Part shown: positions 30,235-53,848 of the stretch, one piece after another
Position numbering within the stretch: the first letter of the stretch is position 1
Layout of the letters: each line of letters opens with the position of its first letter
Origin: Octopus vulgaris
Taxonomy: Eukaryota
Assembly (NCBI GenBank): GCA_951406725.2
Contig: OX597830.1
Coordinates: forward strand, 42,718,001 to 42,782,000
Length of the DNA: 64,000 nucleotides
Direction of reading: 5' to 3'
The notes under the pieces: model-generated
Told to the model about the DNA's origin: nothing
Database searches by the model: none
Seen by the model: the letters and a program-made list of their open reading frames with translations, nothing else
Translations under genes and position numbers: made by a program

Positions 30235-31082
30235 CAGATTTGAAATGTTGGTACCACCATAGATTCAGCAAGTAAGCCTGCTACTGTGAGTCATTTGTTC
30301 TGTTTCAGAAGACTCTCCTTCCTTTCTAGGAAATGAGGTACTGAATATAAAGGGTGGCAAATGCAATTGGTTGTCATAAACAAAGTTGTGTTTTCTTCAT
30401 TAACGACTGCTCCACATGTACCCATCTTCTTGCCAACACACATACCAAAGTTGGCTTCATGCAGTTTGTATTTATACCCAGATTTTTCTTGTGAGGGAAT
30501 ATAACTAAATCCCTGTCAAGCCTGTGGATATCCCCAAAAGAGCAACCACCACACTTTTCAGATACCTTTTTATTCTACGTAACCCAATGCAGACATTCCA
30601 GCATATTATTGATACTGTGATATGTGTCTTTTGTTTTTTCTCTATGCAAGTAATTCCAAAGAAAAACATGAAGAGCACCTGAATTTGTTTTACTTACATT
30701 TGACTGAGTATGGGAGCCATTATTAACCCCAACAAGAGAGTTTTTTTTTTTTTATCATTCTTCAGGTACATTCATTGACAAGGAAGGAATCTGTCCACTC
30801 CTCGAGAAAGTGAAGTCCATTATAGATTTTCCAGAACTAACATCAGTGTGGAAACTAAGTGAATTTCTGGAACTGATACTTTCTATCAGAGATTTATTCC
30901 TCACTGTACAGAAATCAGCTTGACCACTCACAGACCTTGTTCAGCACTGAACAAAGAAGAACCAGCCAATAACTCTAAATGAAAATGAGTTTATCACTTT
31001 TTCTAAACTTAAGACATGTTGGCTGAGACTACAATACGGATTCATCCCAAATATGGTGCTCCTCTTAGTTTGTTGGTCGATG
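30235..31082 (+). mobile_element. Degenerate Ty3/Gypsy gag-pol relic
   Basis: Frameshifted fragments in gypsy order: CWYHHRF (gag knuckle); IPVKPVDIPK, RNPMQTFQHIID, EEHL, IDKEGICPLLEKVKSIIDFP and FYQRFIPHC (RT); LAETTIRIHPKYGAPLSLLVD (start of RNase H). Confidence 0.8.
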
Positions 31083-31497
31083 AATTGATAAAATATTTTA
31101 AAGTAATTGATAGCACCAGTACGTTTGAGATTAGCTCGAGACCATATTGTGTACCCTATGAAGAATGTAGTGAGCGAGAGACAGAGAGAGCGTATTTTAG
31201 GTATTGTGTAACAAGAGTGACAATAAAAAATGTCTTGTAATTGAATAAAAGTTGGATTGTAGACGTTTTAAGATGCTTTCAAATGCAAGGGAGGTAACTC
31301 TCAAAGAAAAGATTTCAATGAAATCCGTCCAAGCCAAGTAAATTCGTTCGTTTTTTCAGCATAATACAAATAGATTAAATAATGTTTCTCGTCCTTTAAA
31401 CCAAGGACATCAAAAATTACATGTATATGATACATTAAAAAATTTCTTTAAAGATAATCGTAAACAGTGATGAAAACCACAAAGATCCTTCAGCTGA

Positions 31498-36598: not shown

Positions 36599-36995
36599 AA
36601 AGAGAGAGAGAGAGTGAGAAAGAGAGGGTGAGAGAGATGAATAGTTATATTGAGATGGAGTAAGGGTTAAGGAAGGTTAAAAATCAATATGCACATCTTG
36701 TATTTACAAAACGATATTATTACAAAATTTTGTTATTTAATATGGCAAATAAAAAGATGCACAGAAGGTTCTAGATTAAATGAAAAAAAAACACAAGTGA
36801 AAACAAATCATTATGCCTAATTTTGTATTCACAGATTAATAACAAGCAGGAAGAGAAAACGCCAGATTAAAAAGATACATTTTCCCCTTCTCTTTTTAAA
36901 TCAATACGCCTAGTTTTGTATTCACAGATCAATAACCTGTAGGAAGAGAAGTCACCAGATTGAAATGATACTTTTGTTCTTCCTGTTTTTAACTA

Positions 36996-37042
36996 ATGAC
37001 ACCAATGTCAAAGATAATAATGAGAAAGTCTCAGATATGCAG
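36996..37042 (+). CDS. Probable first coding exon of the galactose-3-O-sulfotransferase gene
   Basis: ATG at 36996, MTPMSKIIMRKSQIC+AG, then consensus donor CAG|GTAAGT. Phase 2 matches the acceptor at 52710. Preceded by acceptor ttttgtattcacag (36927). Gives a basic cytoplasmic tail before the TM segment, as expected for a type II Golgi enzyme. The linkage is inferred. Confidence 0.65.
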
Positions 37043-39475
37043 GTAAGTCTTCTTCAATTTCTTCTAATACAAAAGAAAACTTTGCTTCCTTATTTTATCA
37101 TTAAACAAGTTATATGAAAGTTGTGAAAGGTGTTAATAATGGCTGAGAGGTAGTAAAGGGTCTTGACTAAAACTATTACAGCTTTTAGTTTTCTGCCTAT
37201 AAGATCTGAGATCAAAGTCTGTAAGAGGGCTCTTTTGCTATTTCTAGTCCATTGAGAGCTGTTGGTGTTGTGAATGTGGTGAACTGGCAAAACTGTTAAA
37301 AATGGCTTGTGGATATTTGTTTTGGTTCTCTGCACTCTGAGTTCAAATCCAGGTGATGCTAACTTTTTAGCTTTTCATCCTTTCAGAGTTGATAAATAAA
37401 GCATCTGTCCAAGGCAATAGATTGGCAGTATTTTTAGAGCCACTAACAAGATGCTTTGCAGTATCTATTCTCAGTCAATATTCTGGGTTTTAACAATTCT
37501 TGCCAAGACAATTATTATAGAGAAATAACCTCTTCAAGTTGGACTAAGACACCAAAAAAAAAAAAAAAAAATACAAAACAAAACAAAAAAAATACAAAAC
37601 AAAACAAAAAAGGTACCAAACTCCAAAGAGTTTATATACTTATAATCTAAGGGCATAAAGTGCTTAATAACTATGATGATACTGATGATGATGATGATGA
37701 TGACCCCTTTAGTCTCAAACTTGTTAACTCAAATTTGCTGTACTGTTTTCTGACTGCTGTCATTTAATCCATTTACTTTTGCATTATTGGCATTTTTCTC
37801 TTGGGATTCTTCATTGGCATTTTGACATTTTGGTGCAATTTACTTTTTGTCAATTTATAAAACTTCCTTAATACTTTTTGGAAAATTTTCAATTATTAAA
37901 AGAAGTTTTCATGTTTTTTTAGTTTTGTTTCAATATCAATTATTTTTTGGCTGTAAAGCGTGTTGCTTGTAAAAATAGTGAAGTCAGATCAGGAAGATAT
38001 TGCTACTGGTATCACGTAACCCAGTGCTACCTGTTTCATGGTTGGATGGTCAGGGATTATACTGGTCCCAGCAACTGGCTTGTCAGGTGAGGAGGATGTT
38101 GTGGACACTGCAAGGTTAAAACCAGGACCTCTCAAAGGGAGGATAAGCTCATTGTGAGCCAATGACCATCCATACAAGTGGTGTCACAAAAACATTGTGT
38201 ACACGGGCTAGCAGACTGAGTAGACAGGCCAAGACTGTAGCCATGAAAACTCCACTAAAAGACATACTGTGCTTTTAAGTTGGAGTTGGTGTCAATGAGT
38301 GATGGGGCATAGAGTAAGACAAAGAAGTAGAAATAGTAGACTAACAGGAATGGTAATATTTTAACAAAGTGTACCTGGAAAAGGTACCAGAAAATAAGCA
38401 CTGGAAGCTTAAAAATATTGCAGCTGAAGCTGGAATTGAATTTTAAAAAGTGTTTTTAGTTTTATTTTATATAAATGCTTGCCTTTTCATTAGATTCTAA
38501 CTTCTCCAATGAAGAAAATTCTCTAAGGAACTTTCTGTATTTGCTCCCCATAAAGGTTTGAAGCTTTCATACATTATAGAGATGCAGTCTGTCTTTCAAA
38601 ATTTCAAAATGCTTAGCTACCTTCATGTTATGTTATTGCCATGATTGTTGAGTTGATATTTAGATATGAAGAAATATAATCTCTTCTATTTGAGAAGAAT
38701 AACTAAGATACATTTTAATTTACTTAGTAACAGTCAAATAGGCAGCTGAAAAATAATAAGAAATAAATGGTGTGGTGAAAATTGAAAAATGAAAATATAT
38801 TCCCATGGAACTCTGGAAATCCCACACTTTGGAGCTCTTGATAACCATAAAATCCCACTTCCCAGCACTCACGTCTTCTCTAGAGCTTGGCCTAAAAACT
38901 AACTTTTAATTTATCTTCTTCAGGCTCAGCATAAACCGTTCCATATGATTTCAGGTAGACATTCACATGAAACTGTGCTAAGGTGGAGAAAAAATAGCCC
39001 TTCAAATTTAGACATGCTGCTTCAGATTTAGCAATATGTTACTTAAGCATGCACTAGTCTCTTGTTAAATCTTTTCCATACTTTCTCATCTGAAGCCTGT
39101 TCATAAAGCATATTAAATTCAAATTCTATCATCAACTGCAATATTCTTAAGATTCAACTTCTATTCCTGTACTTTCTCAAATTCAGTTAATTAAGAATAT
39201 TATTAATCCAGCACCTAAACATTTTGCTGCAGTACACATGCATGCACGCATGCGCATATGTATGCAGGGTCCTCGTTTGCCAATAAATGATGATTCTTAA
39301 AGGAGCATGTTAGTATTGCTTCTGGTGCCTTTCCCAGACCCTATCACATAAGTAAAATTTTATGCTAAATAAATTTTATATATTCAAATGAAGTTCAGAT
39401 ATAAAAAAATAAGTTTAAAAAGAATTTATTATATCAAATAAACAAAAAATAAAACATAGACGTTTGAATAAAAAC

Positions 39476-40014
39476 TGTAACGAACTTTGTGTGTGTGAGA
39501 GATAGCAATCAATTTCCGTTGCTTTAATAATCCAGAATTCTACCCGTCAGAAACAAACAAGACGCAAATGTAAAATATATATAACTACTTTATTCTCTTA
39601 TGGTGAGAGATCAGTGGTATATCTGATATCCTTGGTTCTGGGCGCGCAAGGCTGAAAGTTAATCGATTGTAATATTTACAATGTTCAGCCGCTAAAAACA
39701 GAATGGGTTAAAGATGGCGTCCGGAACAGGGAAGATGATGTGGTCGGCAACAATTTGGTTAAAAGCTTTCGGCCGACTGCTGCTAGAATCAAATTCGGAC
39801 AGAGAGAAAATATACGTGACCGTTGCCTTCGATAGCCATGTCTCAAGTCGCTGCTTGCTGGACGCTGATGGTCAACGTCTTACGATCCCCTTGCCTCGGC
39901 TAACTGCTACGTAGGCAAAAGGGTTCTTCTTCCGGTGGTGAAAGCACCAACCCCGCACGCGCGAAATGCAAATGGACGCTGCGCGAGCGCGCGCCGTTGT
40001 ATAGGATCACTACA
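39476..40014 (-). mobile_element. Solo LTR (Gypsy-like)
   Basis: TGTAAC...CACTACA termini with 4-bp TSD aaac/aaac; AATAAA on the minus strand; homologous to 43861-44466. Confidence 0.8.
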
Positions 40015-40276
40015 AAACTATAAAGTAAATTTACTGTCTCTTAGAATTTTGCAAATGTATTATATCTCGCATCATTGCTGTCAAAAAATGATTTCCACAA
40101 CAGAACATATCTTTTCCTTGTGGTCCCACACAACAATATCTGGCCAGTTGTGTTTTAGTTTTGTGGCTGTTTTAATTTTGAAGTTCCACTAATATTCTTT
40201 TAACCCATCTGTCTCAATATAATAAACTTTGTCTGTAGGTGTTTTCTATGTGTGTGACTGTTAATCTGTGTGAGTG

Positions 40277-40880
40277 TCTGTCATTATTCAGTTTTATTTC
40301 AAGATTTCTTGCCAATAGTGAAAGAGCTGGTTTCTAAACTAGATCCAAGGTTCCTTCATTGGAATTACAATAACATCAACAGGATATTTTTGCATGTTTT
40401 TGTGTGTATATGCAGTATTTGGATTTAGTGTATGTACAGATTTATATGTTATGTTTTATGTATGCACTCTCATGCATATAGCTGCATGTCTTGACATGTG
40501 CATATACACTTAAGTGATAAACTTCGAGAAAGTTTTACAGCTTTTTACAGTTCCAGTGATGGCTTGAATCTATAGTTTTGGAATCAGCTTTCTCTTTTCA
40601 GGTTTTGAGAAGTTTAATTTCTCAAGATTGGAACTTAAGCAGTGTGTACCCCAATAATTACAGATATAAACCTGAATCTGTAATCTGGGTAGAATGTATG
40701 TATGTATATATGTCATTATTCAGATAATTTCAAGAATTCTTGCCAATAGAGAAAGAACTGGTTTCTAACCTAGATCCAAGGTTCCTTCATTGAAATTTCA
40801 ACATCAACAACAGGGTATTTTTGTATGTATGCATGTATGTGCAGATTTGTATGTTTTATGTATATTCTCATGCATATAGT
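40277..40880 (-). mobile_element. Partial-tandem pseudo-LTR remnants of a Penelope-like family
   Basis: Unit tgtcattattcag...tttcaagatttcttgccaatag restarts at about 40711; the same sequence ends the PLE relic at 50437; degenerate hammerhead-like motif on the minus strand. Confidence 0.6.
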
Positions 40881-40924
40881 TGTGTATGTACATACACACA
40901 CACACACTCGTGCACATACATACA

Positions 40925-40959
<35 letters not shown>

Positions 40960-40967
40960 GCATATAC

Positions 40968-41038
<71 letters not shown>

Positions 41039-41044
<6 letters not shown>

Positions 41045-42125
41045 CTGGCAGTGTCAGCTATAGCCTAGTCACCCATATTGTTAACCAGGTGATACTTGAA
41101 GGAGTCATACCCAATGACTGGTGTAGCAGCACCATAGTCAACTGCTACAAAGGTAAAGGTGATGCTTTAGATAGAAATAACTACAGAAGCATCAAGTTGT
41201 TGGATCAGGTAATGAAGGTCACGGAGAGAGTCATAGTCCAACTAATTAAGGAGAGAGTCAGTTGAGATGAGATGCAGTTTGGGTTCATGCCATGGAAAAG
41301 CACCACTGATGCTACACTTCTCGTATGACAGCTGCAGGAGAAATACCTAGCCAAAGATAAATCTCTGTACCTGGCTTTCGTTGACATGGAGAAAGCCTTT
41401 GACAGGGTCCCCCATGACCTTCGAATCTTAGGCCTCACTGAGGCAATGACTAGTGACCGAGATCTTTGGAAATATGCTGTGCTTGAGAAGACCCAGCAAG
41501 CCAAGTGAGACTATAACCTGTGGCCTATGCCAGGGGTGTAACCAGCCCACTTATGCATACCTTTCCTTCATTGGACACTAAACTCTGCTTGCGAAGACCT
41601 GTTGAGGCAAGTGAGATCGAAATCGAAATCAAATTCGATGACAGTACTGCATGACTGGCATCCATACTAATGGAGCGCTAAGAGCACCATCTGAGCGTGA
41701 TCATTGCCCAAGCAGCTGACTGGCTCCCATGCCGGTGGCACATAAAAAGCACCATTCGAGTGTGATCGTTACCAGCATCACCTTGCTGGCATGTGAAAAA
41801 CATTTGAGCGAGGTCATTGCCAGTGCTGCTGGACTGGCTCCTGTGCAGGTAGCATGTAAAAATCACTATTTGAGCGTGGCCATTGCCAGTACCGCCTGAC
41901 TAGCCCTCATGCAAGTGGCACATAAAAGCACCCACTACACTCTCAGAGTGGTTAGTGTTGGGAAGGGCATCCAGCTGTAGAAACTCTGCCAGATCAGATT
42001 GGAGCCTGGTTTGCCTTCTGGTTTGCCTTCTGGTTTGCCTCAGTCAAATCGTCCAACCCATGCTAGCATGGAAAGCAGACGTTAAACGATGATGATGATA
42101 ATGATGATGATGATGATGATGATGA
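41039..42125 (+). mobile_element. RTE-clade LINE, truncated and internally deleted
   Basis: IPNDW.SSTIVNCYKGKGDALDRNNYR.IKLL, MQFGFMP, YLAFVDMEKAFDRVP joined directly to the ORF C-terminus, then 3' UTR and (GAT)n. Confidence 0.9.
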
Positions 42126-42375
42126 GGTTATGAGAGGCGATGGTGTCAATAAGACCCAAAGGTGTCACGTAATGCTGAGTAAGTGCTATGGACAGACCAT
42201 AGTTAAGCTCCAGGTTCAGTGATTATGCGAAGAAGAGGTCCAATGTAGGTCATATATCAGCATGTGTATATAAAAGAAATTTTTTTTCAGAATGAGATAA
42301 AAAATCAAGGCTGTGAGTTCTAAAATCTTCACAGTCTTGGTTTTTTTTTTATATCACATTCTGAAAAAAAATGTT

Positions 42376-42436
<61 letters not shown>

Positions 42437-42474
42437 GTGTATATATATATGTATATATATAAATATATATTTGT

Positions 42475-42513
<39 letters not shown>

Positions 42514-42543
42514 TATACATATATACATATATATATATATGTA

Positions 42544-43428
42544 CTAGCTGACATACCCAGTAATTCCTGGGAAGGCAAGGCTTAACCCTTGGTTCCATTC
42601 TCATAATTGCTTTACTAATCCAGTAACAACAATACAAAGTATGTAGCCCTTAAAACGGTTTTTGTGCATTTATTGAGAATACCTAACTGTCTAACACAGG
42701 ATCTTGTTTTTCAGAATTCCCAATAAATTATGAATGCCCAAATTGTGAAGTCAGTTATGCAATTACATGAAATTAATTACCTGATAGTAAGAATTCAAAT
42801 AAAGTAGCCCCAAAAAGGGCTTTAATACATTCCTAGAGTATATAGAACTTAGGAAGAAATACTAATAAGGTATATATACTAAAATTGTGAAGCATGTTAT
42901 GTAATAACAGACTAATTAGATATGAGATAATAACAATTCAAAGTAAGTAACTCTAAAAAAGGCTTTTGTGTGTTCACAGAGAATATTTTCCTCAGTCACT
43001 AACCGAAATAAGTGGATCTATAGTTTAGGAGAATACGATTTACTTGTTTAAGCATTGTACTGGATAAATTGCGAAAATAACTGAAATAGTTCAAATACTA
43101 AGAAATAAGCATACTCAATTTGATTTATACCAAATAATTTACAAACATGAATGGGTTATTTCCCTTGGTTATATATATATAAGGATCCCTTTCAGGAGCC
43201 AATGGATTATTTCCCTTGGATGTTTAAAAATAATATATTAGATATATGTAGTAGATATAAGAATATCCTTTCCTCCCTATTATCGATTTTTTCAACAATC
43301 TAAGTATGTCACTAGTTTTCCAGACATGGGTTCATCAAAATCAATAAAACGATGTAGGAGGAGTTGGATAACAACTCTACAAACGAACACACCCACAAAC
43401 AGAATTTTCCACATATGTAGTAGATAGA
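42544..43428 (-). mobile_element. Non-autonomous Helitron
   Basis: On the minus strand it starts a|TCTATCTACTAC and ends with hairpin CCCAG-gaatta-CTGGG, 8 nt, CTAG|t (A-T target); internal diverged tandem units of about 170 bp. Confidence 0.7.
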
Positions 43429-43431
43429 TAT

Positions 43432-43493
<62 letters not shown>

Positions 43494-43544
43494 ATGTATG
43501 TGTGTGTATGTATATACACTTTGATCTATATATACTTTGTATAT

Positions 43545-43843
43545 ACTTTGATCTGTTTTTTATATTGAATACGTATCGCCACCGTGGGCCACTACATCGA
43601 ACACTTTGAACATATAGCATAAATGAACTTACTTCAAACTATATATGAACTTTAAGATGTCTGACTCCGTTGTGAATTGTAAATGAATTTCTTGTGTTTG
43701 ATGGCATGAGCTGTCTTTTTTTATATATAACTTTTTTTGATAAGGTTCATTTCAGGAACCGAAACATGTTATAATGTATATATAAAAATTAAAAATTGTA
43801 TAATATAGCAGCATTTTCGAACTTCATTTTTTACAAATATATA
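43545..43843 (+). repeat. 5' pseudo-LTR of the PLE
   Basis: Direct repeat of 49095-49393. Confidence 0.95.
43716..43790 (+). ncRNA. Minimal type I hammerhead ribozyme motif, U3-A8 core variant
   Basis: TTGATAA (43737-43743), stem II GGTTC/GAACC, GAAA, palindromic stem III ACATGT, GUU triplet; distal stem I tttttatatata/tatatataaaaa. Confidence 0.75.
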
Positions 43844-43860
43844 CCTACTCGTATACGAGC

Positions 43861-44466
43861 TGTAAAGAACTTATTGTTGATATCTTCTCTCTTGTACTTT
43901 CGGGGTACAAGAAAGCAATCACTTTCCGTTGCTTTAATAATCCAGATTCTCTACCAGTCAGAAACAACAAGACGCAGACGTAAAAGATATATATACTACT
44001 TTATTCTCTTTCTTGGTAACAGTAACAATAAGTGGTTATCTGATGTCCTTGGTTCTGGGCGCGCAAGGCTGAAAGTTAATCGATTGTAATATTTACAATG
44101 TTCAGCCGCTAAAAACAGAACGGGTTAAAGATGGCGTCCGGAGGAAGAAGATGGGGTCTGCAACAATTTGGTTAAAGGCCTTTTGGTATGGTGCTGCTAG
44201 AATCAAGTCCGGACGGAGAGAAAATATGCGTGCCCGTCGCCTTCAGTCGCTGCTGTCCCAAGTCGCCGGCCGCCGCCGCCAGCGGTCAAACGCTCCACAA
44301 CCCCCTTGCCTTGGCTAACTACCACGTAGGCAAAAGGGTCGTGCCTCCGGTGGTTCGCGCATGCGCGAGAGGGCCCTTCCCCACCCTCTGCCTTGGCGAA
44401 GGCACCAACACGCGCGAAATAGAAAATGGACGGTGCACGCGCGCGCACCGCCACAGGATCACTACA
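43861..44466 (-). mobile_element. Solo LTR nested in the PLE 5' UTR
   Basis: TGTAAAG...CACTACA; homologous to 39476-40014; flanked by 13-bp ct(c/t)gtatacgagc duplication. Confidence 0.8.
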
Positions 44467-44878
44467 CTTGTATACGAGCTAATCCTATTATAAGTATCAC
44501 ATCACGTACGAGCTCCCGAAAATGCCTGCTAAAAAAGACACCAATGACATCTCCTCAATAAATGAAGAGATACTGAAAGAATTGAAAAGCATAAATTCAA
44601 ACCTAACAGCAGTGTTAAACAAACTCAACCTTAACACCTCGACCTTCTACACAAACTAACGAGGAAACCGAATCGAATAAAACACCCTCTGAAATATTCG
44701 AGAAAGTTGAAAATCTATGCGATACAATGACGACATTCTTCACAAACTTTACGAAACAAGAGCAACAAAAAGAAGGAACACATGAGAAGAACCGAGCAAC
44801 TTCAACATTACAAATAAAGAACCAAGTCCTCCCCAATGGAGAACACTACAGCGAAACAGAAAATTCGCTTTTTGGAAA

Positions 44879-45922
44879 ATGATACAAAATCAGAATAAAG
44901 CAGAGATTTACCAAAAATGGCTAGACTCAACACCCCTAGTCATACCCCCTAAATTACAAATCAAGCCCATCTCGGAAGAACCAGAAGAACAAAGAAAACT
45001 TAGAGAAAAAATGTCATTAGACAAAATGAAGATGGAAATAGAACTACTCAAGCTGAGAGCTAAGACGAATGGAGAAAAAGTAAAAACCATAGACGAGGAA
45101 ATCAACGAAGAAGTCATCAAACTAATAGACGACATCAAAACTGAAACATTACCAGCACTATGGAATGAAGAATGTGAAAAAGAGGAACTTAAGTCCCTCC
45201 AACGATGGGAAAAGAGCGCCATCTGGTTTCTAGATTATGAAACCAACTTCAAAAATGAACACATATCCAACAACCCCTTCATAAAATTAAGTAAATCAAA
45301 ACCAAATACCAACAGAACGGAACAACCACCAAGAAATCCTAACACACTTTACACCAGAAAAGTACACCTAAAACACACCCCACACTACCTACACCAACCC
45401 CAAAACACCTGCAGAGGCCCACCACACCAGTTCGAAAATAGACATACCAACAGAGCAGAACAACCACCAAGAAATCCAAACACACCCTACACCAGAAAAA
45501 TGCATTTAAAACGCACCCCACACTACCTACACCAACCCCAAAACACTTATAGGGTCCGACCACACCATTCCACGAACCTAAGAGCCACAACATACAATAC
45601 TATAAAATACAACCCACATAACCAAACCAAAACGCTACTACCAAACATCCACCCCAGGAACCAACCATACAAACATAACAAACAACAAATGCACTACGGA
45701 GGAAACAACTACCAACACAATATACCTGATGAACTAAGACGGAACACTAGGTACAACAACACACTCCAGAACAGAGCACCACAAACTCACTCTGACAATT
45801 ATAACAACATGAGACAGATAAATAGTAGCTTTGAACATAACTACACCAACCATTTTTTAGACCTTACACACAGGAACAGGGACACACGATGGCAAAGGAC
45901 AAACAAAAGAAACCTCAGGTAA
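44879..45922 (+). CDS. PLE ORF1 (charged helical/coiled-coil-like N half, N/H/P/Q-rich C half); probably began at ATG 44522
   Basis: 347-aa ORF directly upstream of and overlapping the RT ORF, with the same A/C-rich strand bias; upstream coding-like segments 44522-44659 and 44619-44882 in shifted frames. Confidence 0.8.
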   Translation: MIQNQNKAEIYQKWLDSTPLVIPPKLQIKPISEEPEEQRKLREKMSLDKMKMEIELLKLRAKTNGEKVKTIDEEINEEVIKLIDDIKTETLPALWNEECEKEELKSLQRWEKSAIWFLDYETNFKNEHISNNPFIKLSKSKPNTNRTEQPPRNPNTLYTRKVHLKHTPHYLHQPQNTCRGPPHQFENRHTNRAEQPPRNPNTPYTRKMHLKRTPHYLHQPQNTYRVRPHHSTNLRATTYNTIKYNPHNQTKTLLPNIHPRNQPYKHNKQQMHYGGNNYQHNIPDELRRNTRYNNTLQNRAPQTHSDNYNNMRQINSSFEHNYTNHFLDLTHRNRDTRWQRTNKRNLR

Positions 45923-48186
45923 TTAAGATAATCAATCTCTCAAACAAAGAACTTACACCTAACGAAATAAGCATACTCTCCAAAGGACTTAAATTTACAC
46001 CTACCCCACAACGTTCTAATTACTATGAAATGAAAGATGATATTTCGGAATTTTGCAGAAAACTAAGACTCACCGAGGCATTTCAAGACAAAAAAATAGA
46101 GGAGGACCCAATAGCTAGAAACAAGAGCAATTACACCCCCACCAAGGGAAAGAATAAAGCCTTAGACCGCTATTGTGACTACATAACTAATTTCCCGTTT
46201 CAATTCATCAAGAAACAAAAACACAGCCCTAACTTCAACAAAAGAGAATGGAACGACCTCATCAAACTAAGAGAAGACAAAACAATAACAATTAAGGAGG
46301 CAGATAAGGGCAACGCGATAGTAATAATGAATACAAACGATTATAAAAATTTAGTGCTATCCCTATTAAGAGATGAAACGTATTATGAAAGGGCCCAACA
46401 GTATAATCAGCAAAAAATAATGCATAACCTTAGGACATTAATCAACACATACCAAGAAGGACTCACGAACAAGGAGTATGAATACATCACTAACTTCAAA
46501 TGCAAATCGAGTTTGTTCTATGGTATCCCTAAGGTACACAAAAGCCAAATAATTAGAGAAACGTGCAAAACATCCACCGACACACTCATCAAAATCCCTT
46601 CACCAAATGATCTTAAACTAAGACCGATAATAGCAGGGCCAGCATGTGAAACTCACCGCCTCAGCAATTTCTTAGACACACTTCTTAAACCTTTCCTAAA
46701 ACACATTAAAAGCTACGTAAGAGACGATATAGATATGCTCAACCACCTCCCTAAAAGAGTCAATGAGAAAACCCTTCTAGTATCATTCGACGTAGTTAAT
46801 CTTTATTCTAACATCCCTCACAACCTAGGAATAGAAGCGATCACCTTCTGGCTGAATAACTACCCCTTTGAACTCCCAACTCACATAAACAAAGACCTTA
46901 TAATAGAAGGACTTAGATTCATTTTAGAGAACAATTATTTTATTTTTGACAATGATTTCTACAGACAAAGATCGGGAACAGCGATGGGCACGCATACTGC
47001 ACCATCTTTTGCCAACCTAGTGATGGGATACCTCGAGAAAATACTATACCGGATAACACTCGAGAAATATGGAAACACCTTCGCCACCTATATCCATAAC
47101 AACTGGAAAAGATACCTCGATGACTGTTTCATCATCTGGGACAAAGGTATAGAGAAACTTGAGGAATTTAAAATACTATTAAATGGAATAAATGACAATA
47201 TACAATTCACGATGGACCACAACGAAAAAGAATTACCATTTTTAGACATCCTCATTAAGAAAACCGGCAACAAAATAGAGACAGATATCTACTATAAACC
47301 GACAGACTCTAAACAGTACCTACCCTTTGATTCATGCCACCCACGACACACTAGAATGAATGTCCCTTTTTGTTTAGCTAGAAGGATTTGCACCATAATA
47401 TCAGACACAAACACCCGACACACACGTCTCCAGGAACTTAGAACCACACTCACAAATAGAAACTATCCACAGCCCCTAATAGACAGTGCAATCCAACGGG
47501 TACTTAAATTAAATATAGAAGACCTGAGACAAACAAAACCAAAAAAGAAAGAACAATTAAAAACCCTTCCCTACATCTCTACACACAACCCACTCAACAA
47601 TGAGGCCTTCAACACCATACTACAAAGCACAGCCCTACTAAAGGGAGACCCAAAGATGAACCGGATCCTCGAAACATACACCATCATTAAAAGTAAACGG
47701 CAACCAAAATCCTTGAAAAGGATTTTAACCCAAGCTACACTGCACTCAACATCAACCACAAAACCAGCAGTTAGAAAATGTGGAAGGCCCAACTGCGGAA
47801 TCTGTGTCATCTTGAAAGAAGGATCAGAATTTATACTGGAACAAGGCCACCAGTTCACCATTAGAACAAACTTCACCTGCGCATCAGAAAACTTAATTTA
47901 CGTCATAACATGCGCAGGCTGCAATAGGCAGTATATAGGCCATACAAAAAATAGCTTACGTAACAGGATGGGGGTGCATAAATCACAAATTAGAAACCCT
48001 GATTACCGCAAAATACCGGTCAGCGGACACATAGATAGATGTGCTGGAAATGTAAATCCGAAATTTACAACTAACCCGCTCTATAAATTCAGTGACAACG
48101 CAACCTTCACACAACGCCAAAATAAAGAACTGTATTTCATAAAAAAATTTAGACCAAGTTTAAACACCCTGGGCCAGGAATATTAA
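45889..48186 (+). CDS. Penelope-like reverse transcriptase + GIY-YIG endonuclease
   Basis: INLS..L...GLKF.PTP, ADKG, SFDVVNLYSNI, QRSGTAMG, RYLDDCF, LPFLD; Cys linker CGRPNCGIC; NLIY..TC..C...YIG.T....R...H; terminal E..FI.....LN; uninterrupted 765 aa. Confidence 0.97.
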   Translation: MAKDKQKKPQVIKIINLSNKELTPNEISILSKGLKFTPTPQRSNYYEMKDDISEFCRKLRLTEAFQDKKIEEDPIARNKSNYTPTKGKNKALDRYCDYITNFPFQFIKKQKHSPNFNKREWNDLIKLREDKTITIKEADKGNAIVIMNTNDYKNLVLSLLRDETYYERAQQYNQQKIMHNLRTLINTYQEGLTNKEYEYITNFKCKSSLFYGIPKVHKSQIIRETCKTSTDTLIKIPSPNDLKLRPIIAGPACETHRLSNFLDTLLKPFLKHIKSYVRDDIDMLNHLPKRVNEKTLLVSFDVVNLYSNIPHNLGIEAITFWLNNYPFELPTHINKDLIIEGLRFILENNYFIFDNDFYRQRSGTAMGTHTAPSFANLVMGYLEKILYRITLEKYGNTFATYIHNNWKRYLDDCFIIWDKGIEKLEEFKILLNGINDNIQFTMDHNEKELPFLDILIKKTGNKIETDIYYKPTDSKQYLPFDSCHPRHTRMNVPFCLARRICTIISDTNTRHTRLQELRTTLTNRNYPQPLIDSAIQRVLKLNIEDLRQTKPKKKEQLKTLPYISTHNPLNNEAFNTILQSTALLKGDPKMNRILETYTIIKSKRQPKSLKRILTQATLHSTSTTKPAVRKCGRPNCGICVILKEGSEFILEQGHQFTIRTNFTCASENLIYVITCAGCNRQYIGHTKNSLRNRMGVHKSQIRNPDYRKIPVSGHIDRCAGNVNPKFTTNPLYKFSDNATFTQRQNKELYFIKKFRPSLNTLGQEY

Positions 48187-48359
48187 AACAAAAGATAAGT
48201 CCTCCGAAAAGGAGAAGCAAAATTCCACCACGGCCGCTACCTTAAATAGTCACTCGCACTGACGGAAATATGCCTTAGTAAAAAAGGGAAAAAAATTTTT
48301 GTGTGCAAATCTGACCCTGATGGACTGACCACATACGATACAGCTAAGGGTCAGACCCG

Positions 48360-49040
48360 ATTCTGATTGGTCAACATGTTGATGACGTCTAGTTCTGCTA
48401 GAATGGACAGGATACAAACAGGGGGCAGAGATTAGTCAGAATATTGATGACGTCCTTTTCTACTTGACTAGTCACCTAACAAGAAACAGACAGGGGGCAG
48501 ATCTAATGCAGCTATAAGTCGTGATTGGGCAGAATCTTGATGACGTCCCGTTCTGCCTGACTAAGCCACCTAACGAAACGACTGGTCAAACAGGATACAG
48601 ACAAGAGGCAGTTATAATACAGCGATAGGTCACGATTGGTCAGAATGTTGATGACATCCAGTTCTGCTTGACTAAGCCACCTAACGAAAAGGGGCAGATC
48701 TAATACAGCTATAAGTCGTGATTGGTCAGAATCTTGATGACGTCCCGTTCTGCTTGACTAAGCCACCTAACGAAACGACTGGTCAAACAGGATACAGACA
48801 AGAGGCAGTTATAATACAGCGATAGGCCACGATTGGTCAGAATGTTGATGACGTCCCGTTCAGCTTGACTAAAGCCACCTAACGAAACGATTGGTCAAAA
48901 CGTTGATGACGTCACGCTACGCTGGATTGACCACCTAACAGGCATTATAAAACCCGAACATTTCACAAGACTCACCAGAATTCACCAGAATCACCCAGCG
49001 AACACCCACCATGGGTCATCACAATTGCTCAAGGTAAAAA
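48360..49040 (+). promoter_or_regulatory. Putative internal Pol II promoter in the PLE 3' region: 7x (ATTGG + TGACGTC) array, TATA box, mini-exon and splice donor
   Basis: Seven gattggtca..tgatgacgtc-type units (perfect TGACGTCA at 48907), TATAAAA at 48946, caccATGG at 49011, AAG|GTAAAA at 49033/49034. Confidence 0.65.
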
Positions 49041-49094
49041 TGAATTCCTCGCTCTTTCGGGAACATCAATCTTCTGTATTGACTGCTTTCCACC

Positions 49095-49382
49095 ACTTTG
49101 ATCTGTTTTTTATATTGAATACGTATCGCCACCGTGGGCCACTACATCGAACACTTTGAACAGATAGCATAAATGAACTTACTTCAAACTATATATGAAC
49201 TTTAAGATGTCTGACTCCGTTGTGAATTGTAAATGAATTTCTTGTGTTTGACGGCATGAGCTGTCTTTTTTTATATATAACTTTTTTTGATAAGGTTCAT
49301 TTCAGGAACCGAAACATGTTATAATGTATATATAAAAATTAAAAATTGTATAATATAGCAGCATTTTCGAACTTCATTTTTT

Positions 49383-49393
<11 letters not shown>
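49095..49393 (+). repeat. 3' pseudo-LTR of the PLE
   Basis: Direct repeat of 43545-43843, runs into (TA)n. Confidence 0.95.
49266..49340 (+). ncRNA. Second copy of the U3-A8 hammerhead motif
   Basis: Identical to 43716-43790. Confidence 0.75.
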
Positions 49394-49417
<24 letters not shown>

Positions 49418-49724
49418 TATATGTAAATATATATATTATACACACATATACATATCTCATATCTCATCTCATCCACACCTTCCTCAAACACACATACACA
49501 GACACACACAACCTACACTACTATACTTCTGCACTTGCTGACTTATAAACACTTACCGAAAATGTCACACATGCCACTCCCTCTCATATATTTGTCTCTA
49601 AAAACGGATTCACTCTGATACTTGTAAATATGCACCCACCTCTCCTCTCTTCCCATTCCCACCTGACCTCTTGTCCCCCCCCCCCGCTCTCACTGAATTT
49701 TCCTCTTCCCCAGTCCCTATGCTT

Positions 49725-49785
49725 TTCTGTTTCTCCTGATGAAGGATTAACATCAGAAACATTAAGATTTTTCTCTCTTCCTTTT
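49725..49785 (+). ncRNA. Degenerate hammerhead-like motif (relic of another PLE end)
   Basis: CTGATGA-aggat-taac-atca-GAAAC; stem II partly broken. Confidence 0.4.
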
Positions 49786-50058
49786 CAGCATTGAATTAAT
49801 ACAGTATTTGATCAATCTTGTCCCTCCTGTGTTGCTTGTTTTATTGTTTATTGCTTTTACAATATATCATCACCATCATCATCATCATTTGACGATCGTT
49901 TTCCATGATGGCATGGGTTGGACGGTTTGACAGAAGCTGACAAGTCTGATGACTGCACCAGGCTTCATTGTCTGTTGTAACATAGGTTCTATGGTTCGGC
50001 GCCCAACTGAGTGTCTTTTACATGGCACCAGCATTGGTGAGGTATGATTTGGTATGGT

Positions 50059-50295
50059 ACGCTAAGGTGGCAAGCTGGCAGAAACGTTAGCACGCCGGGT
50101 GAAATGCGTAACCGTATTTCGTCTGCCGTTACATTCTGAGTTCAAATTCCGCCGAGGTCGACTTTGCCTTTCATCCTTTTGGGGTCGATAAATTAAGTAC
50201 CAGTTACGCACTGGGGTCGATGTAATCGACTTAATCCATTTGTCTGTCCTTGTTTGTCCTCTCTGTGTTTAGCCCCTTGTGGGTAGTAAAGAAAT
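50059..50295 (+). mobile_element. Young tRNA-derived SINE with 19-bp TSD
   Basis: A-box-like tggcagaaacg, B-box-like gagttcaaattcc, core gcctttcatccttttggggtcgataaa; TSD aggtatgatttggtatggt at 50040-50058 and 50296-50314. Confidence 0.9.
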
Positions 50296-50436
50296 AGGTA
50301 TGATTTGGTATGGTTTTTACAGCTGGAAGCTCCAAGTAATTTGCAAGACAAAGATCCTTTGAAAGGGGCATGGGGTACTGGGGTAGTTGGCCTTGTGCCA
50401 GGTGATGATGGGACAGATAGAAACAGGTGCTATGTC

Positions 50437-51345
50437 TGTCTGACATTATTCAGTTTTATTTTAAGATTTCTTGCCAACAGAGAAAGAGCTTGTTTCTAAC
50501 CTAGATGCAAGGCCTCCCTCATCGGAATTTCAGCATCAACAACAGGGTATTTTTGTTTCTATGCATGTATGTATATGTGCAGACTTTGCTTTATGTAGTT
50601 ACATGCATATAGCTGCATATGTAGACATGATCATATGTACTTAAATGATAAAACTTTTGGGAAGTTTGATGGCTTGGTTCTGTAGTCTTTGAATCAGCTT
50701 TCTCCTTTCTGGTTTTGAGAAGTATAACTAATCAAGATTGGTATTTAGGCAGTGTGTTACATATCCCAGGGCTCCAACAATTACAAGTATAAACCTGAAC
50801 TTGTAATCTGGATAGAGTAACTGCAGATTTCTCAGTAGTTTAGGTATTCTCTGTTTCACTGATCTTCAGCTTTATGTCAACATCAACAACCGTGCACAGT
50901 TGTATGTATGTATGTATGTATGTATGTATGTATGTATGTATGTATGTATGTATGTATGTGTGTGTGTATGTATGTAAGTATGTATGTATGTATGTATGTA
51001 TGTATGTATGCATGTATGTATGCATGCATGTATGTATGTGTGCATGCATGTATGTATGTGTGCATGTATGTATGTATGTATGTATGTATGTATGTATGTA
51101 TGTGTGTGTGTATGTATGTACGTATGTATGTATGTATGCATGTATGTGTGCATGTATGTATGTATGTATGCATGCATGTATGTATGTGTGCATGTATGTA
51201 TGTATGTATGTATGTATGTATGTGCATGTATGTATGTATGTGTGTGTGTATGTATGTATGCATGTATGTGTGTGTGTATGTATGCATGTATGTGTGCATG
51301 TATGCATGTATGTATGTATGTATGTATGTATGTATGTATATATGG

Positions 51346-51401
<56 letters not shown>

Positions 51402-52590
51402 GAAATGAAGCTAGTGTACTCTTTTGGATGTGCATGTGTGTGTACATATATGTATCCATGTTTTTGATATTTATGTATGTGGGCGTGACAGATGTATGTT
51501 AGTGTGGTTGCAACAGTGTTGCTGGGGAAGAGTGAGAAAAACTGGCATTGGAGTGAGGTTTGGTGGTGTAAAGGAGGGAAGGGGGAGAAGTATGTGTTCA
51601 TTAAATGTATGTATGTGTATAGATGTGTATTCACATAGACATGTGTATGTGTGAGTGTGTGTTTTTTGTGTGTGTTGTTGTAGGGGATTACAGGGGGTGC
51701 ATGATGTTGTGGAATTAGTTGCAGTTTGAATAGGCATTATTCGTTAGAAACCCTGTTCTTGATTGTGGAGCAGCCAATGTTAGTTATCAGCAGTCAGTGG
51801 TTTGAAGTTCACCAGGTAGGTGTACCTCTGAAGGCAGCAATAAGATAGTTTGTATTTTCTACTGATAGATCAGTTTGGAGGAAAATGTACAGCCTTTTGA
51901 GGAGGCAGAGCTAGCAATTGTGGGTGCTAGGTGAGTAGGGTGAGGCCTTGTTGATAATGGTCCATTTGATGTTGGAGGTTTCATTCTGGAGGTCACGGGG
52001 TCATTGGAGGAAATGAGACTAAAGTGGAATTCTCTCCATCCCTGCATTGAAGCAAATGTATATGTTGTGAGTACCTTCCCTTGAAGTCATTGGCTTTCAT
52101 GTCAGTGTAGTGCCTTGTGGTACCATCAGATGGTTTGAGGGTGGCTATGTAAAGTACAACCCTTGCAAGATAGGATCCTCCTAGAGATGGAATCTGGTAG
52201 GGTTTTGGAAGTCATAGGTTGGGGTTGGAGGTTGTGCAGGTGCATGTTTGTGTCTGTTGGAGTGTGCATTGTTAGAAGTGATATTATCTAAACAGGTATA
52301 GCTTATCTTCACATTGTGTAATTTAAGGAGCCTAGAATGCTAGTGGCCTCTGGGGAAATACTTCTTAATCAAAGATAGGGAACTCTTGGATACATTGGTG
52401 GAAACTTTTAGGTCAAATGGGGGTGGGGTGGGTGAACCAGATTATGTTTCCCTTCATGGTCCTCTTCAGGTGCAAGAGTGAGAGTTGGGTGGGGGTCCTC
52501 TATATATGCTAACTTCTTGGTAGAGCCACTCCTTACCAATGCATCATTGTAGTGGTGGTGGTGGGGCAGCCTTGTTGAAGATCTCCAGTA
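50437..52590 (-). mobile_element. Degenerate Penelope-like element (second family) with expanded microsatellite in its 3' region
   Basis: Minus-strand fragments NIIWF..PPF...VSTN......LIKKYFP, VKISYTC, IKWTII.KA.PY.....C.LCL, typical of PLE thumb/GIY-YIG C-termini; end sequence shared with 40277-40880. Confidence 0.75.
50902..51398. repeat. (GTAT)n/(GCAT)n compound microsatellite
   Basis: Read directly. Confidence 0.98.
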
Positions 52591-52710
52591 CCATTGTATT
52601 TTATGCTTTGAACATTAACATATAAATGAGTATATTTATGCACAAATATTTGCTAATGTATTATGCATCAGTGTTTTTTACATATCTTTTATGGTATTTT
52701 CTATTTGCAG

Positions 52711-53848
52711 ATATCATCAAAAATATTTGTGTATCATCCAATTGATATCCATGTGTTCTCTGCTAATTTTATCTGTGTTCTGCTTTACCAATATGTTTTT
52801 TCTCATACACCACCAATTCGGTATTAAATCAACCAATGTAAATGATAATTCTGAAACTAAAGCATCAATTTGTGTCCCTCAAAAAAATATAGTCTTTCTG
52901 AAAGTACACAAAACTGGAAGTACAACGATTATGAATATACTACAAAGGTATGGCATTATAAACAACTTAAACTTTGTTCTACCAAAAAATGGACACTACC
53001 TTGGCAAAACTGAAACACTTATGGAAAATAAAATCCTTCCACCTCCTCAAAATGAGTCCTACAACATTCTTTGCAACCATGTTATTTATAATCAAAGTGC
53101 TTTTCAGAGTCTACTTCCAAGAAATATGTACTATTTTACAATTTTGCGAGAACCTTTAAGTCAATTTGTATCTGCTTTCTTGTATTATAGGAATGTGTGG
53201 AGAAATGAATATCTTCTGGCAGTACCTGGAGAACATTTTATAGGTGAATATCTAAAAAATCCAGTAAAGTATGAATCACTGCTAAAAAATCAGGGATTTT
53301 CTTACACAAATAACCGCATGTCATATGATTTAGGTTTGAAACTATCTGATTTCCATAGTGAGGCTAAAATTTCAAAGCATATTTCTGATTTGGATAAAGA
53401 CTTTCACTTAGTATTGATCCAGGAATATTTTGATATTTCAATGATTCTTCTGAAAAGAAAATTATGTTGGCAAATGAAAGATATGCTTTATATAGAAAGG
53501 AATGTAGCTTCTTCCAGAAATACTCCTATCTTAACAGCTGAAGATACAAACCGTTTTAAAAAATGGGCTAAAGCTGACTATATACTTTATGAACATTATT
53601 TGAAAGTATTTTGGCACAAAATAAGGACTGAAGAGGATATTTTGTCTGAAGTTTATCATTACCAATCATTACTATATCAAACAAAGAAATTTTGTATGAC
53701 CAAGAATTCTTTAGTTTTAGAAATACAAGCCAGTGTTTGGAACAAAGAAATACTTTTACTGAGAAAAGACTGTGACATTATGCTTAAAAGTGAATTGGAC
53801 TTAGTGTATGCTTTGCAGAGAGCATATAGGGAAAAACTAAATTTATGA
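52711..53848 (+). CDS. Galactose-3-O-sulfotransferase (GAL3ST / cerebroside sulfotransferase family), main exon
   Basis: Acceptor ttttctatttgcag| at 52710; N-terminal TM segment; PAPS-binding motifs IVFLKVHKTGSTT and TILREP..QF.S.F.YY; N.M.YDLG, F.LVLI.EYFD.S.ILLKR.LCW, D..LY.H. Paralogue number cannot be assigned by eye. Confidence 0.95.

What the first reader, a model, noticed from the sequence alone, without database searches (positions are those of the whole stretch)
48360..49040. LTR-U3-like enhancer array (7x CCAAT + CRE) with TATA box and mini-exon at the 3' end of a PLE
Seen: seven units, each pairing an inverted CCAAT box (ATTGG or variant) with TGACGTC at fixed spacing, while the spacers vary. 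There is a higher-order duplication of about 197 bp. The array is followed by TATAAAA, TCA-type initiator candidates about 26-36 nt downstream, caccATGG and a donor AAG|GTAAAA just upstream of the pseudo-LTR/ribozyme. Known: PLEs use the upstream tandem copy's 3' end as promoter and can retain introns. Inference: an NF-Y/CREB-responsive (cAMP, stress or neuronal activity) promoter, with an intron that would splice the ribozyme out of the mRNA.
Basis: partly seen in the sequence, partly recalled or inferred. Interest (0 to 1): 0.7.

Follow-up and report, generated by a model that had tools for sequence, protein, structure and literature searches.

The report
Promoter array in octopus Penelope retrotransposon
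An octopus Penelope-type retrotransposon carries, behind its genes, seven tandem CCAAT-plus-CRE-motif units, a TATA box, a start codon and a splice-donor-like site; these likely form its own outward-facing promoter, which at this site could also start an in-frame alternative transcript of the host sulfotransferase gene whose intron it sits in.

Summary
Observation confirmed. Seven GATTGG-N12-TGACGTC units (5 of 7 with both cores intact), a 197-nt higher-order repeat, TATAAAA (48946), caccATGG (49011) and AAG|GTAAAA (49033) lie in the 3' UTR of a young two-ORF Penelope-like element (Neptune/Nematis type) in Octopus. Collapsed to one unit, the layout is still rare: CCAAT+CRE+TATA in 21 of 20,000 shuffles, with initiator and donor 0 of 20,000 (features chosen after the fact). 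Motif columns changed less than the rest of the unit (p=0.015) but not significantly less than the inner spacer (p=0.14).

Corrections: (1) this copy's upstream pseudo-LTR lacks the array, so the array cannot drive these ORFs; (2) the most T-rich acceptors in a modelled tandem lie inside the hammerhead, so splicing would split it; (3) no acceptor joins the mini-exon to ORF1; (4) cAMP or neuronal response is untested.

New: the element is sense in a 15.7-kb intron of a Gal3ST-like gene, and the mini-exon would splice in frame to the host coding exon (386 aa); that phase match has 1-in-3 odds and a competing acceptor. Verdict: likely a real LTR-U3-like PLE promoter, a new variant of a known strategy; no transcript data.

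The parts
48365..48929 (+). Array of seven GATTGG-N12-TGACGTC units (inverted CCAAT box plus CRE-like site), with a 197-nt higher-order duplication 48489-48675 / 48686-48872
48946..48952 (+). TATA box TATAAAA in G/C flanks
48972..48984 (+). Candidate initiators (TCA; A48974 is 28 nt from the first T of the TATA box, A48984 is 38 nt); start site inferred
49011..49033 (+). Mini-exon coding part from CACC-ATG-G to the donor-like site, 23 nt, phase 2; unspliced it reads MGHHNCSR and stops at the TAA inside the donor
49031..49039 (+). Donor-like site AAG|GTAAAA
49095..49393 (+). 3' pseudo-LTR as delimited by the direct repeat (299 nt, 2 differences from the 5' copy), running into (TA)n
49287..49320 (+). 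Minimal hammerhead-like motif, U3-A8 core variant (UUGAUAA, 5-bp helix II, GAAA, palindromic CAUG); holds the candidate acceptors 49294 and 49305
   Evidence: variant described in PMC4209133; no Rfam match
43545..43843 (+). 5' pseudo-LTR, truncated so that it lacks array, TATA and donor; hammerhead-like motif at 43737
43861..44466 (+). 606-nt TGTA...TACA CpG-rich insert in the PLE leader, flanked by a 13-nt direct repeat (12 of 13 identical); solo-LTR-like, a separate element
44522..45922 (+). ORF1, broken between about 44650 and 44830 (homology moves to another frame and back); relatives start MP(P/A)K or M at an internal site
45889..48186 (+). ORF2: RT, CX4CxxC linker, C-terminal GIY-YIG with CCHH; open
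36996..37042 (+). Host Gal3ST-like first coding exon, phase 2, donor CAG|GTAAGT
52711..53848 (+). Host Gal3ST-like main coding exon (membrane anchor and catalytic domain), acceptor at 52710

Best explanation
The array, TATA box, ATG and donor-like site lie in the 3' UTR of a Penelope-like element and likely form its own RNA polymerase II promoter, working like an LTR U3: repeated sites predicted to bind NF-Y and an ATF/CREB-type factor would start transcription near 48974 and, in a head-to-tail tandem, would drive the next copy. Shown: the motifs, their spacing, their place between the RT-endonuclease stop and the pseudo-LTR, and lower variability of the motif columns. Inferred: the unit was amplified by tandem duplication under selection for promoter strength. 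Unspliced RNA would keep the hammerhead and serve as template; a spliced form using an acceptor at 49294 or 49305 would break the upstream ribozyme, keep its cap and carry a short upstream ORF ahead of ORF1. In this copy the upstream array was lost by 5' truncation, so the array points out of the element into the host intron, where it could act as an alternative promoter of the Gal3ST-like gene.
For: The element is a PLE: RVT_1 and GIY-YIG above Pfam cut-offs, a 299-nt direct repeat, hammerhead-like motifs in both repeats. Positions from A48974 are CCAAT -82, CRE -67, TATA -28. The layout is rare in shuffles even as a single unit (21 and 0 of 20,000) and unique among 508 TATAWAW sites. Motif columns take 2 parsimony steps in 12 columns against 22 in 28 others (p=0.015); pairwise difference is 0.048 core, 0.167 inner spacer, 0.279 downstream, and the motif register ties for the lowest variability of 18 slid registers. 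The array is not an inserted solo LTR: 0 of 280 TG...CA pairs have a 4-6 nt target duplication, while the solo element at 39476-40014 has one. The CpG-rich block in the leader is a separate insert; without it the PLE's own leader is about 59 nt, which leaves the 3' array as the main promoter candidate. CRE-like half sites occur between ORF stop and hammerhead in 2 of 6 related loci. [quoted passage not shown]
Against: No transcript, CAGE or binding data. Motif versus inner spacer is not significant (p=0.14), units were put in register on the motifs, one of 528 equally short trees was used, and among the five inner units the contrast is small (0.067 vs 0.100). Two of seven units have lost a core. 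None of 6 related 3' UTRs has a CCAAT array or CCAAT excess, 4 of 6 lack CRE half sites, the two in L002 are one local duplication, and those of L001 may be an RNA hairpin (z -2.1). The tested D. virilis promoter is internal and aligns with TATA-less LINE promoters. Only one copy of this family is in the window, so family-wide conservation is unknown. Initiator and donor are imperfect matches.
Confidence: 0.68

Rival explanations
1. The array is a neutral minisatellite. One chance or ancestral CCAAT/CRE-like word was copied by slippage or RT template jumps, and only the last unit (or none) matters for transcription.
For: PLE UTRs and ORF1 carry local duplications anyway: a 138-nt repeat in ORF1 and 30-nt repeats in the L002 3' UTR. 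The inner spacer is nearly as conserved as the motifs (p=0.14). The 197-nt copies are 95% identical, so several units are very recent. The motif pair alone occurs in 632 of 20,000 shuffles.
Against: The conserved block is centred on the two motifs while unit length varies from 58 to 111 nt. The three most distant units differ at 0.056 of core columns against 0.49 downstream. The array ends at promoter distance from a TATA box.
Confidence: 0.15
2. The repeated word is a binding site or RNA signal for the element's own proteins (ORF1 or the zinc-finger RT-endonuclease) used in packaging or priming, not a host transcription-factor site.
For: ACGTCA words sit 26-45 nt before the hammerhead in L001 and L002, and in L001 they can pair as an RNA stem. 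The whole 25-nt core, not only the two boxes, is conserved.
Against: Two separate textbook motifs, a TATA box and their spacing are explained by a promoter but not by an RNA signal. In the one PLE tested in vitro the needed RNA lies in the first 172 nt of the ORF (PMC11167929).
Confidence: 0.07
3. The block is a promoter and first exon captured from a host gene or another mobile element and carried as cargo, not needed for the PLE's life cycle.
For: ATG, short exon and GT donor with an in-frame stop resemble a first coding exon. The ATG cannot be joined to ORF1 (0 of 11 AGs) and ORF2 relatives mostly have their own Met. This element did accept a foreign LTR-like insert in its leader.
Against: No TG...CA ends with target duplication, no terminal inverted repeat of 8 nt or more, and only one 9-nt flanking direct repeat. 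No second copy in the window. Capture and use as the element's promoter are not exclusive.
Confidence: 0.1

Closest known systems
Penelope of Drosophila virilis (PMC2377424, parts 2-3 of 4 read; PMC4209133, parts 1-2 of 4 read)
   Same: [quoted passage not shown]
   Different: Its mapped promoter is internal to the transcript and aligns with TATA-less LINE promoters. Here the candidate is upstream of the start site, has a TATA box and a 565-nt tandem array, and the exon holds an ATG.
Chlamys-3_cRei (PMC8557442, passages) and Adineta vaga Pen2a (PMC3846280, passages)
   Same: TSS and 5' UTR intron in the pLTR (Chlamys-3); putative TATA plus initiator in the pLTR (Pen2a).
   Different: No upstream enhancer array is mentioned in the passages seen. 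Chlamys has an N-terminal endonuclease and mostly no hammerhead.
HeT-A 3' promoter (PMC5537684, passages)
   Same: The 3' end of one copy promotes the next, giving an LTR-like unit from promoter to promoter.
   Different: Telomeric non-LTR element; no ribozyme or CCAAT/CRE array in the passages seen.
ERV9/LTR12 U3 enhancer (PMC11853044, passages)
   Same: 5-17 tandem repeats, each with an NF-Y CCAAT box plus partner sites, ahead of a TATA-like motif about 30 nt from the start site; acts as an alternative promoter of host genes.
   Different: A true retroviral LTR in primates; partners are GATA-2 and MZF1, not a CRE; repeats are about 41 nt. This is an analogy of design, with no evidence of common descent.
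NF-Y with bZIP composite sites (PMC7793273, passages; ERSE and MHC class II X2-Y spacing recalled)
   Same: ATF1/7, CREM, FOS and JUN co-occur with NF-Y-bound CCAAT, with positional bias of TRE-like motifs in human promoters.
   Different: The ATTGG-N12-TGACGTC arrangement was not found named in the papers searched; it is not ERSE (CCAAT-N9-CCACG, recalled).

Membership tests
EN+ Penelope-like element | RT with C-terminal GIY-YIG endonuclease in one ORF | tested here: met
   PF00078 at residues 260-442 and PF01541 at 685-772 of a 781-aa open frame, both above cut-off
EN+ Penelope-like element | CCHH motif with two cysteines between the GIY and YIG words | tested here: met
   YVITCAGCNRQYIG followed by two histidines in the translation; feature as defined in PMC8557442
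EN+ Penelope-like element | Pseudo-LTR direct repeats from partial tandem insertion | tested here: met
   299 nt, 99.3% identical, 5550 nt apart
EN+ Penelope-like element | Minimal hammerhead motif in the pseudo-LTR | tested here: met
   U3-A8 core, 5-bp helix II, palindromic CAUG in both repeats; fold z -2.6; Rfam gives no hit
EN+ Penelope-like element | Self-cleavage of that motif | not testable with these tools
   Needs an in vitro cleavage assay; position 17 is U and helix I has U-U mismatches next to the core
Neptune/Nematis clades | CX2-5CxxC zinc-finger-like linker before the endonuclease | tested here: met
   CGRPNCGIC; a CX2-5CxxC pattern in the last 180 residues of 120 of 120 listed relatives
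Neptune/Nematis clades | Insertion into (TA)n microsatellite | tested here: met
   (TA)n at 43434-43483 and 49387-49414 flanks the element
Neptune/Nematis clades | RT phylogeny placing it in Neptune or Nematis | not tested
   No labelled reference RTs were on hand
Solo LTR (U3-R-U5) inserted in the 3' UTR | TG...CA ends flanked by a 4-6 nt target duplication | tested here: not met
   0 of 280 TG...CA pairs; the control element at 39476-40014 passes
Solo LTR (U3-R-U5) inserted in the 3' UTR | Tandem factor-binding repeats upstream of a TATA box | tested here: met
   supports 'works like a U3', not membership
D. virilis Penelope-type promoter | Promoter internal to the transcript, without TATA box | tested here: not met
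   Candidate elements lie upstream of the inferred start and include TATAAAA; the start site itself is not mapped
D. virilis Penelope-type promoter | Spliceosomal intron in the 5' UTR ending at the hammerhead | tested here: inconclusive
   Donor-like site present; acceptors 49294 and 49305 rank at the 98th and 97th percentile of 3974 AGs by a crude T-richness score; no reads
cAMP-responsive CREB promoter | CREB binding and induction by cAMP | not testable with these tools
   Full TGACGTCA in 1 of 7 units, TGACG half site in 6 of 7; no assay

The most novel reading that the evidence does not exclude
A Penelope-like lineage has converged on a retroviral-style U3: a signal-responsive NF-Y/CRE enhancer array with TATA box and a portable first coding exon at its 3' end. 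Every 5'-truncated copy is then a ready-made alternative promoter and first exon. At this locus it gives the octopus Gal3ST-like Golgi sulfotransferase a new inducible first exon that swaps only the short cytoplasmic tail (MGHHNCSR for MTPMSKIIMRKSQICR) and leaves anchor and enzyme whole.
Probability: 0.12. Interest if true: 0.78.

Novelty: new variant of a known kind. Interest (0 to 1): 0.5.

Why it matters
PLE promoters have been dissected in very few elements, and the one tested by reporters (D. virilis) is a simple internal promoter whose authors suggested that LTR-type upstream elements arose later (PMC2377424). A PLE with a multi-unit upstream enhancer and TATA box would be the complex form, and a concrete case for the idea that LTRs arise from promoting in tandem. 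It gives a compact, testable cephalopod promoter and a specific splice model in which splicing disables the upstream ribozyme. Because PLE copies are usually 5'-truncated and keep the 3' end, such a promoter could start transcripts in host introns; this locus names one exact junction (49033 to 52711) that existing Octopus RNA-seq can confirm or rule out.

Tried and rejected
Rfam at gathering threshold found nothing in the window; at E up to 10 only microsatellite-driven miRNA hits and one RT-6 hit at E 9.5 in 48150-50000. ARAGORN found no tRNA. The sigma-70 scan is not relevant to a eukaryote and was at chance level, 5 against 3.3. Array as inserted solo LTR: rejected. CpG-rich leader block as the PLE's own internal promoter: set aside because it is a bounded insert with a solo copy elsewhere; it may still promote this particular copy, and whether other copies carry it is unknown. 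Mini-exon as first coding exon of ORF1: rejected, 0 of 11 AGs give an open join and 3 of 4 ORF1 relatives start MP(P/A)K like 44522 (those starts are gene-finder calls and would not show a spliced leader). Mini-exon spliced to 45861 in frame with ORF2: possible (1 of 8 filtered acceptors) but not favoured, since the acceptor is only at the 77th percentile, L001 has no AG there, the closest ORF2 relatives have their own Met and none of 120 has a matching N-terminus (one chance 3-letter hit). My acceptor filter is crude: it missed the real host acceptor at 52710. Helical phasing between units shows no pattern. ESM Atlas gave no usable hit for ORF1. The source records of the ORF1 relatives could not be looked up, so their DNA and organism stayed unchecked. 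L005 was dropped from the 3' UTR count for having no 3' sequence. No octopus genome, RNA-seq or CAGE data were available, and the metagenome and viral contig collections stayed unchecked. Literature: 'Penelope-like'+'CCAAT' gave 1 paper, on a fungal genome, seen as listing only; 'Penelope-like'+'TATA box'+'hammerhead' gave 0; a five-term search with CREB and NF-Y listed 15 of 18 papers, none on PLE promoters by title; some searches gave the comparisons cited. The octopus brain retrotransposon paper PMC9115989 has no 'Penelope' in its main text. The library lacks most subscription papers and Repbase/Dfam entries, and no supplements were opened, so an earlier description may exist.

Full report
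1. The observation. The sequence at 48360-49040 is as described. Seven units begin at 48365, 48430, 48523, 48634, 48720, 48831 and 48889, each GATTGG, 12 nt, TGACGTC. A 25-nt pattern for the unit finds 7 matches in 64 kb, all here, and none in 100 shuffles. Five of seven keep both cores; unit 2 has GATTAG, unit 4 TGACATC, and only unit 7 has TGACGTCA. Unit lengths vary from 58 to 111 nt, whereas the 12 nt between the boxes are fixed in length and mostly conserved. Units 3-4 and 5-6 form the 197-nt duplication. TATAAAA is at 48946, TCA at 48972 and 48982, CACCATGG has its ATG at 49011, and AAG|GTAAAA ends the exon at 49033.

2. Is it more than chance? The repeats are copies, so I collapsed the 3' UTR to one unit and shuffled it 20,000 times: the motif pair alone appeared 632 times, pair plus TATA 21 times, and the full set with initiator and donor never; 1 of 508 TATAWAW sites in the window has both motifs upstream. 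These features were picked after the fact. From A48974 the last CCAAT lies at -82, the CRE at -67 and the TATA at -28, which are usual positions (own knowledge). On one of 528 equally short trees of the units, motif columns took 2 steps in 12 columns against 22 in the other 28 (p=0.015) and 16 in 15 downstream columns (p=0.004), but against the inner spacer the difference was not significant (6 in 12, p=0.14). Sliding the same mask along the unit gives 2 variable columns at the motif register (tied with two neighbouring registers) and up to 10 elsewhere. This is moderate, not strong, evidence of selection.

3. The element. [quoted passage not shown] 574 of 7999 scored candidates were relatives, the best 58% identical. 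An upstream ORF1 starts at 44522 and is broken in this copy; 4 relatives were found among 1161 candidates. A 299-nt direct repeat with 2 differences (43545-43843, 49095-49393) frames the element between (TA)n tracts, so the insertion is young. Each repeat holds a minimal hammerhead-like motif with the U3-A8 core change that PMC4209133 describes for PLEs; Rfam does not detect it. The neighbouring gene is 99% identical to an Octopus sinensis protein and 100% over the aligned part to an O. vulgaris one, so the window is from that species group.

4. Where the array sits. It lies between the ORF2 stop and the 3' repeat, and outside the duplicated part: the 5' repeat begins 62 nt past the donor position. 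No second array exists in the window. The array therefore cannot drive this copy's ORFs; it could do so only in a tandem whose upstream copy is cut further 5'. It is not an inserted solo LTR: 0 of 280 TG...CA pairs have a target duplication. A rival promoter candidate, the CpG-rich block at 44000-44550 with an AAGATGGCG word (YY1 label recalled), proved to be a 606-nt TGTA...TACA insert flanked by a 13-nt repeat, with a solo copy at 39476-40014 that has a 4-nt target duplication. Without it the PLE leader is about 59 nt. Whether that insert is in other copies is unknown.

5. The intron. In a modelled head-to-tail junction without the insert there are 11 AGs between the donor and the ORF1 ATG. 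None joins the mini-exon to ORF1 in an open frame. The two most T-rich, 49294 and 49305, lie inside the hammerhead core and rank at the 98th and 97th percentile of 3974 AGs on a crude score that puts the true host acceptor at the 99th. They would give introns of 261 or 272 nt and upstream ORFs of 28 or 13 codons. Splicing would thus split the ribozyme, close to D. virilis Penelope, where the intron ends at helix I (PMC4209133). An in-frame join to ORF2 at 45861 is possible but not favoured.

6. The host gene. The element lies sense in the 15,668-nt intron (37043-52710) of a galactose-3-O-sulfotransferase-like gene; joining the host exons gives 394 aa, 2 residues different from the O. sinensis protein. 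The host first coding exon is phase 2, and so is the mini-exon. Splicing 49033 to 52711 gives an open 386-aa frame with the hydrophobic anchor at residues 14-32 and the whole catalytic domain. Against reading much into this: phase agrees by chance one time in three; 3 of the other 8 similar donor words in the intron also have an open phase-2 ATG, though 49033 alone has both a TATA and an open ATG; a stronger-scoring acceptor at 49788 lies first and gives a 54-codon dead end; and the ribozyme lies in the path of the nascent RNA.

7. Relatives. One scan of prokaryotic genome contigs gave 7 loci out of 268 candidate stretches, 33-45% identical in the best segment; they are titled as bacterial assemblies but look like eukaryotic PLEs, likely carried-over host DNA. 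Six have 3' sequence. CRE-like half sites occur before the hammerhead in L001 (3, expected 0.04) and L002 (2, expected 0.13, one local duplication) and in none of the other four; CCAAT is enriched in none and no array is present. The L001 sites may instead form an RNA stem. The array is therefore lineage-specific as far as these distant relatives show.

8. Mechanism. Shown: motifs, spacing, position, relative conservation, frames. Inferred: NF-Y and an ATF/CREB-type bZIP bind each unit, TBP binds the TATA box, and transcription starts near 48974 and runs through the pseudo-LTR into the next copy, so that 48187-48973 acts as U3 and the stretch to the ribozyme as a terminal redundancy. Unspliced RNA keeps the ribozyme and is the template; spliced RNA loses it and is the message, read past a short upstream ORF. 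Which bZIP acts, and whether cAMP matters, is open: the GATGACGT half is shared by several bZIP families (recalled), and CCAAT plus CRE is also a common constitutive promoter pair (own knowledge). I put the promoter reading at 0.68 and a cAMP or activity response at about 0.3.

9. Known kinds. Promotion from the upstream copy's 3' end is known for Penelope (PMC2377424, parts 2-3 of 4 read) and HeT-A (PMC5537684, passages). TSS and intron in the pLTR are known for Chlamys-3 (PMC8557442, passages), and TATA plus initiator was noted in a rotifer pLTR (PMC3846280, passages). Tandem NF-Y repeats before a TATA-like box, used as alternative host promoters, are known for LTR12 (PMC11853044, passages); NF-Y co-occurs with ATF/CREM-type factors in human promoters (PMC7793273, passages). 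Also consulted: PMC11167929 (part 1 of 4), PMC12065363 (passages), bioRxiv 10.64898/2026.07.22.740005 (passages, no 'promoter' in the text), PMC9115989 (passages). I found no description of a CCAAT/CRE array in a PLE; the library is partial and supplements were not opened.

10. Verdict. A real feature; a member of the EN+ PLEs; works like an LTR U3 but is not an LTR. New variant of a known kind. Interest 0.5; the bold reading (portable inducible first exon used by the host sulfotransferase) has probability about 0.12 and would merit 0.78.

Noticed in passing
window 43861-44466 and 39476-40014: Two copies (about 83% identical) of a TGTA...TACA CpG-rich solo-LTR-like element with a fully conserved block of about 95 nt ending in AAGATGGCG. 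The solo copy has a 4-nt target duplication; the copy inside the PLE leader has a 13-nt flanking repeat instead, which is odd for an integrase. It could serve as a replacement promoter for this PLE copy.
   Followed up: partly
window 45853-45922; L001 1199-1268: ORF2 overlaps ORF1 in the -1 frame and ORF1 reads T TTT TTA at the overlap, the shape of a slippery site; L001 has T TTT TTG there and no Met in its ORF2 frame, and three full-length ORF1 relatives keep FL[DE]. No strong downstream stem (z +0.97). An ORF1 with frameshift is noted for some PLEs in PMC8557442 Fig. 1 legend.
   Followed up: partly
window 44650-44830: ORF1 homology leaves its frame and returns to it, i.e. two compensating breaks, while ORF2 is open and the repeats are 99.3% identical; may be real or assembly error.
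   Followed up: partly
window 45306-45567: 138-nt tandem duplication inside the low-complexity tail of ORF1 (87% identical).
   Followed up: no
window 49440-49860 (+), core at 49736; and 52469 (-): Two further CTGANGA...GAAAC hammerhead-like cores in pyrimidine-rich settings, likely 3' remnants of other PLE families. The first is followed by a strong acceptor-like site at 49788.
   Followed up: partly
window 48311-48355: 9-bp inverted repeat closing a hairpin just upstream of unit 1 (z -2.05).
   Followed up: partly
window 48555-48568 and equivalent places in units 4 and 5: TGACTAAGC follows the CRE in three units and fits the TGAC-nnn-GC antioxidant-response pattern (recalled); low information, possibly chance.
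   Followed up: no
window 31016-31201, 36926-37048, 52705-53845: The O. vulgaris database model P0126 of the Gal3ST-like gene uses other frames for the first exons than the O. sinensis model P0125, whose exon join is open in this window; P0126 is likely mis-predicted.
   Followed up: partly
window 11428-12297 (-): LINE-type RT fragment (PF00078, E 4.6e-23).
   Followed up: no
window 6323-7193: 338-nt tandem repeat, 2.6 copies, 100% identical.
   Followed up: no
L001-L007: Contigs titled as bacterial assemblies that encode eukaryote-type PLEs, four with hammerhead cores after the ORF (L007 also has a 117-nt pseudo-LTR pair); several protein hits labelled as bacterial symbionts are likewise PLE proteins. 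Likely host DNA carried into the assemblies.
   Followed up: partly
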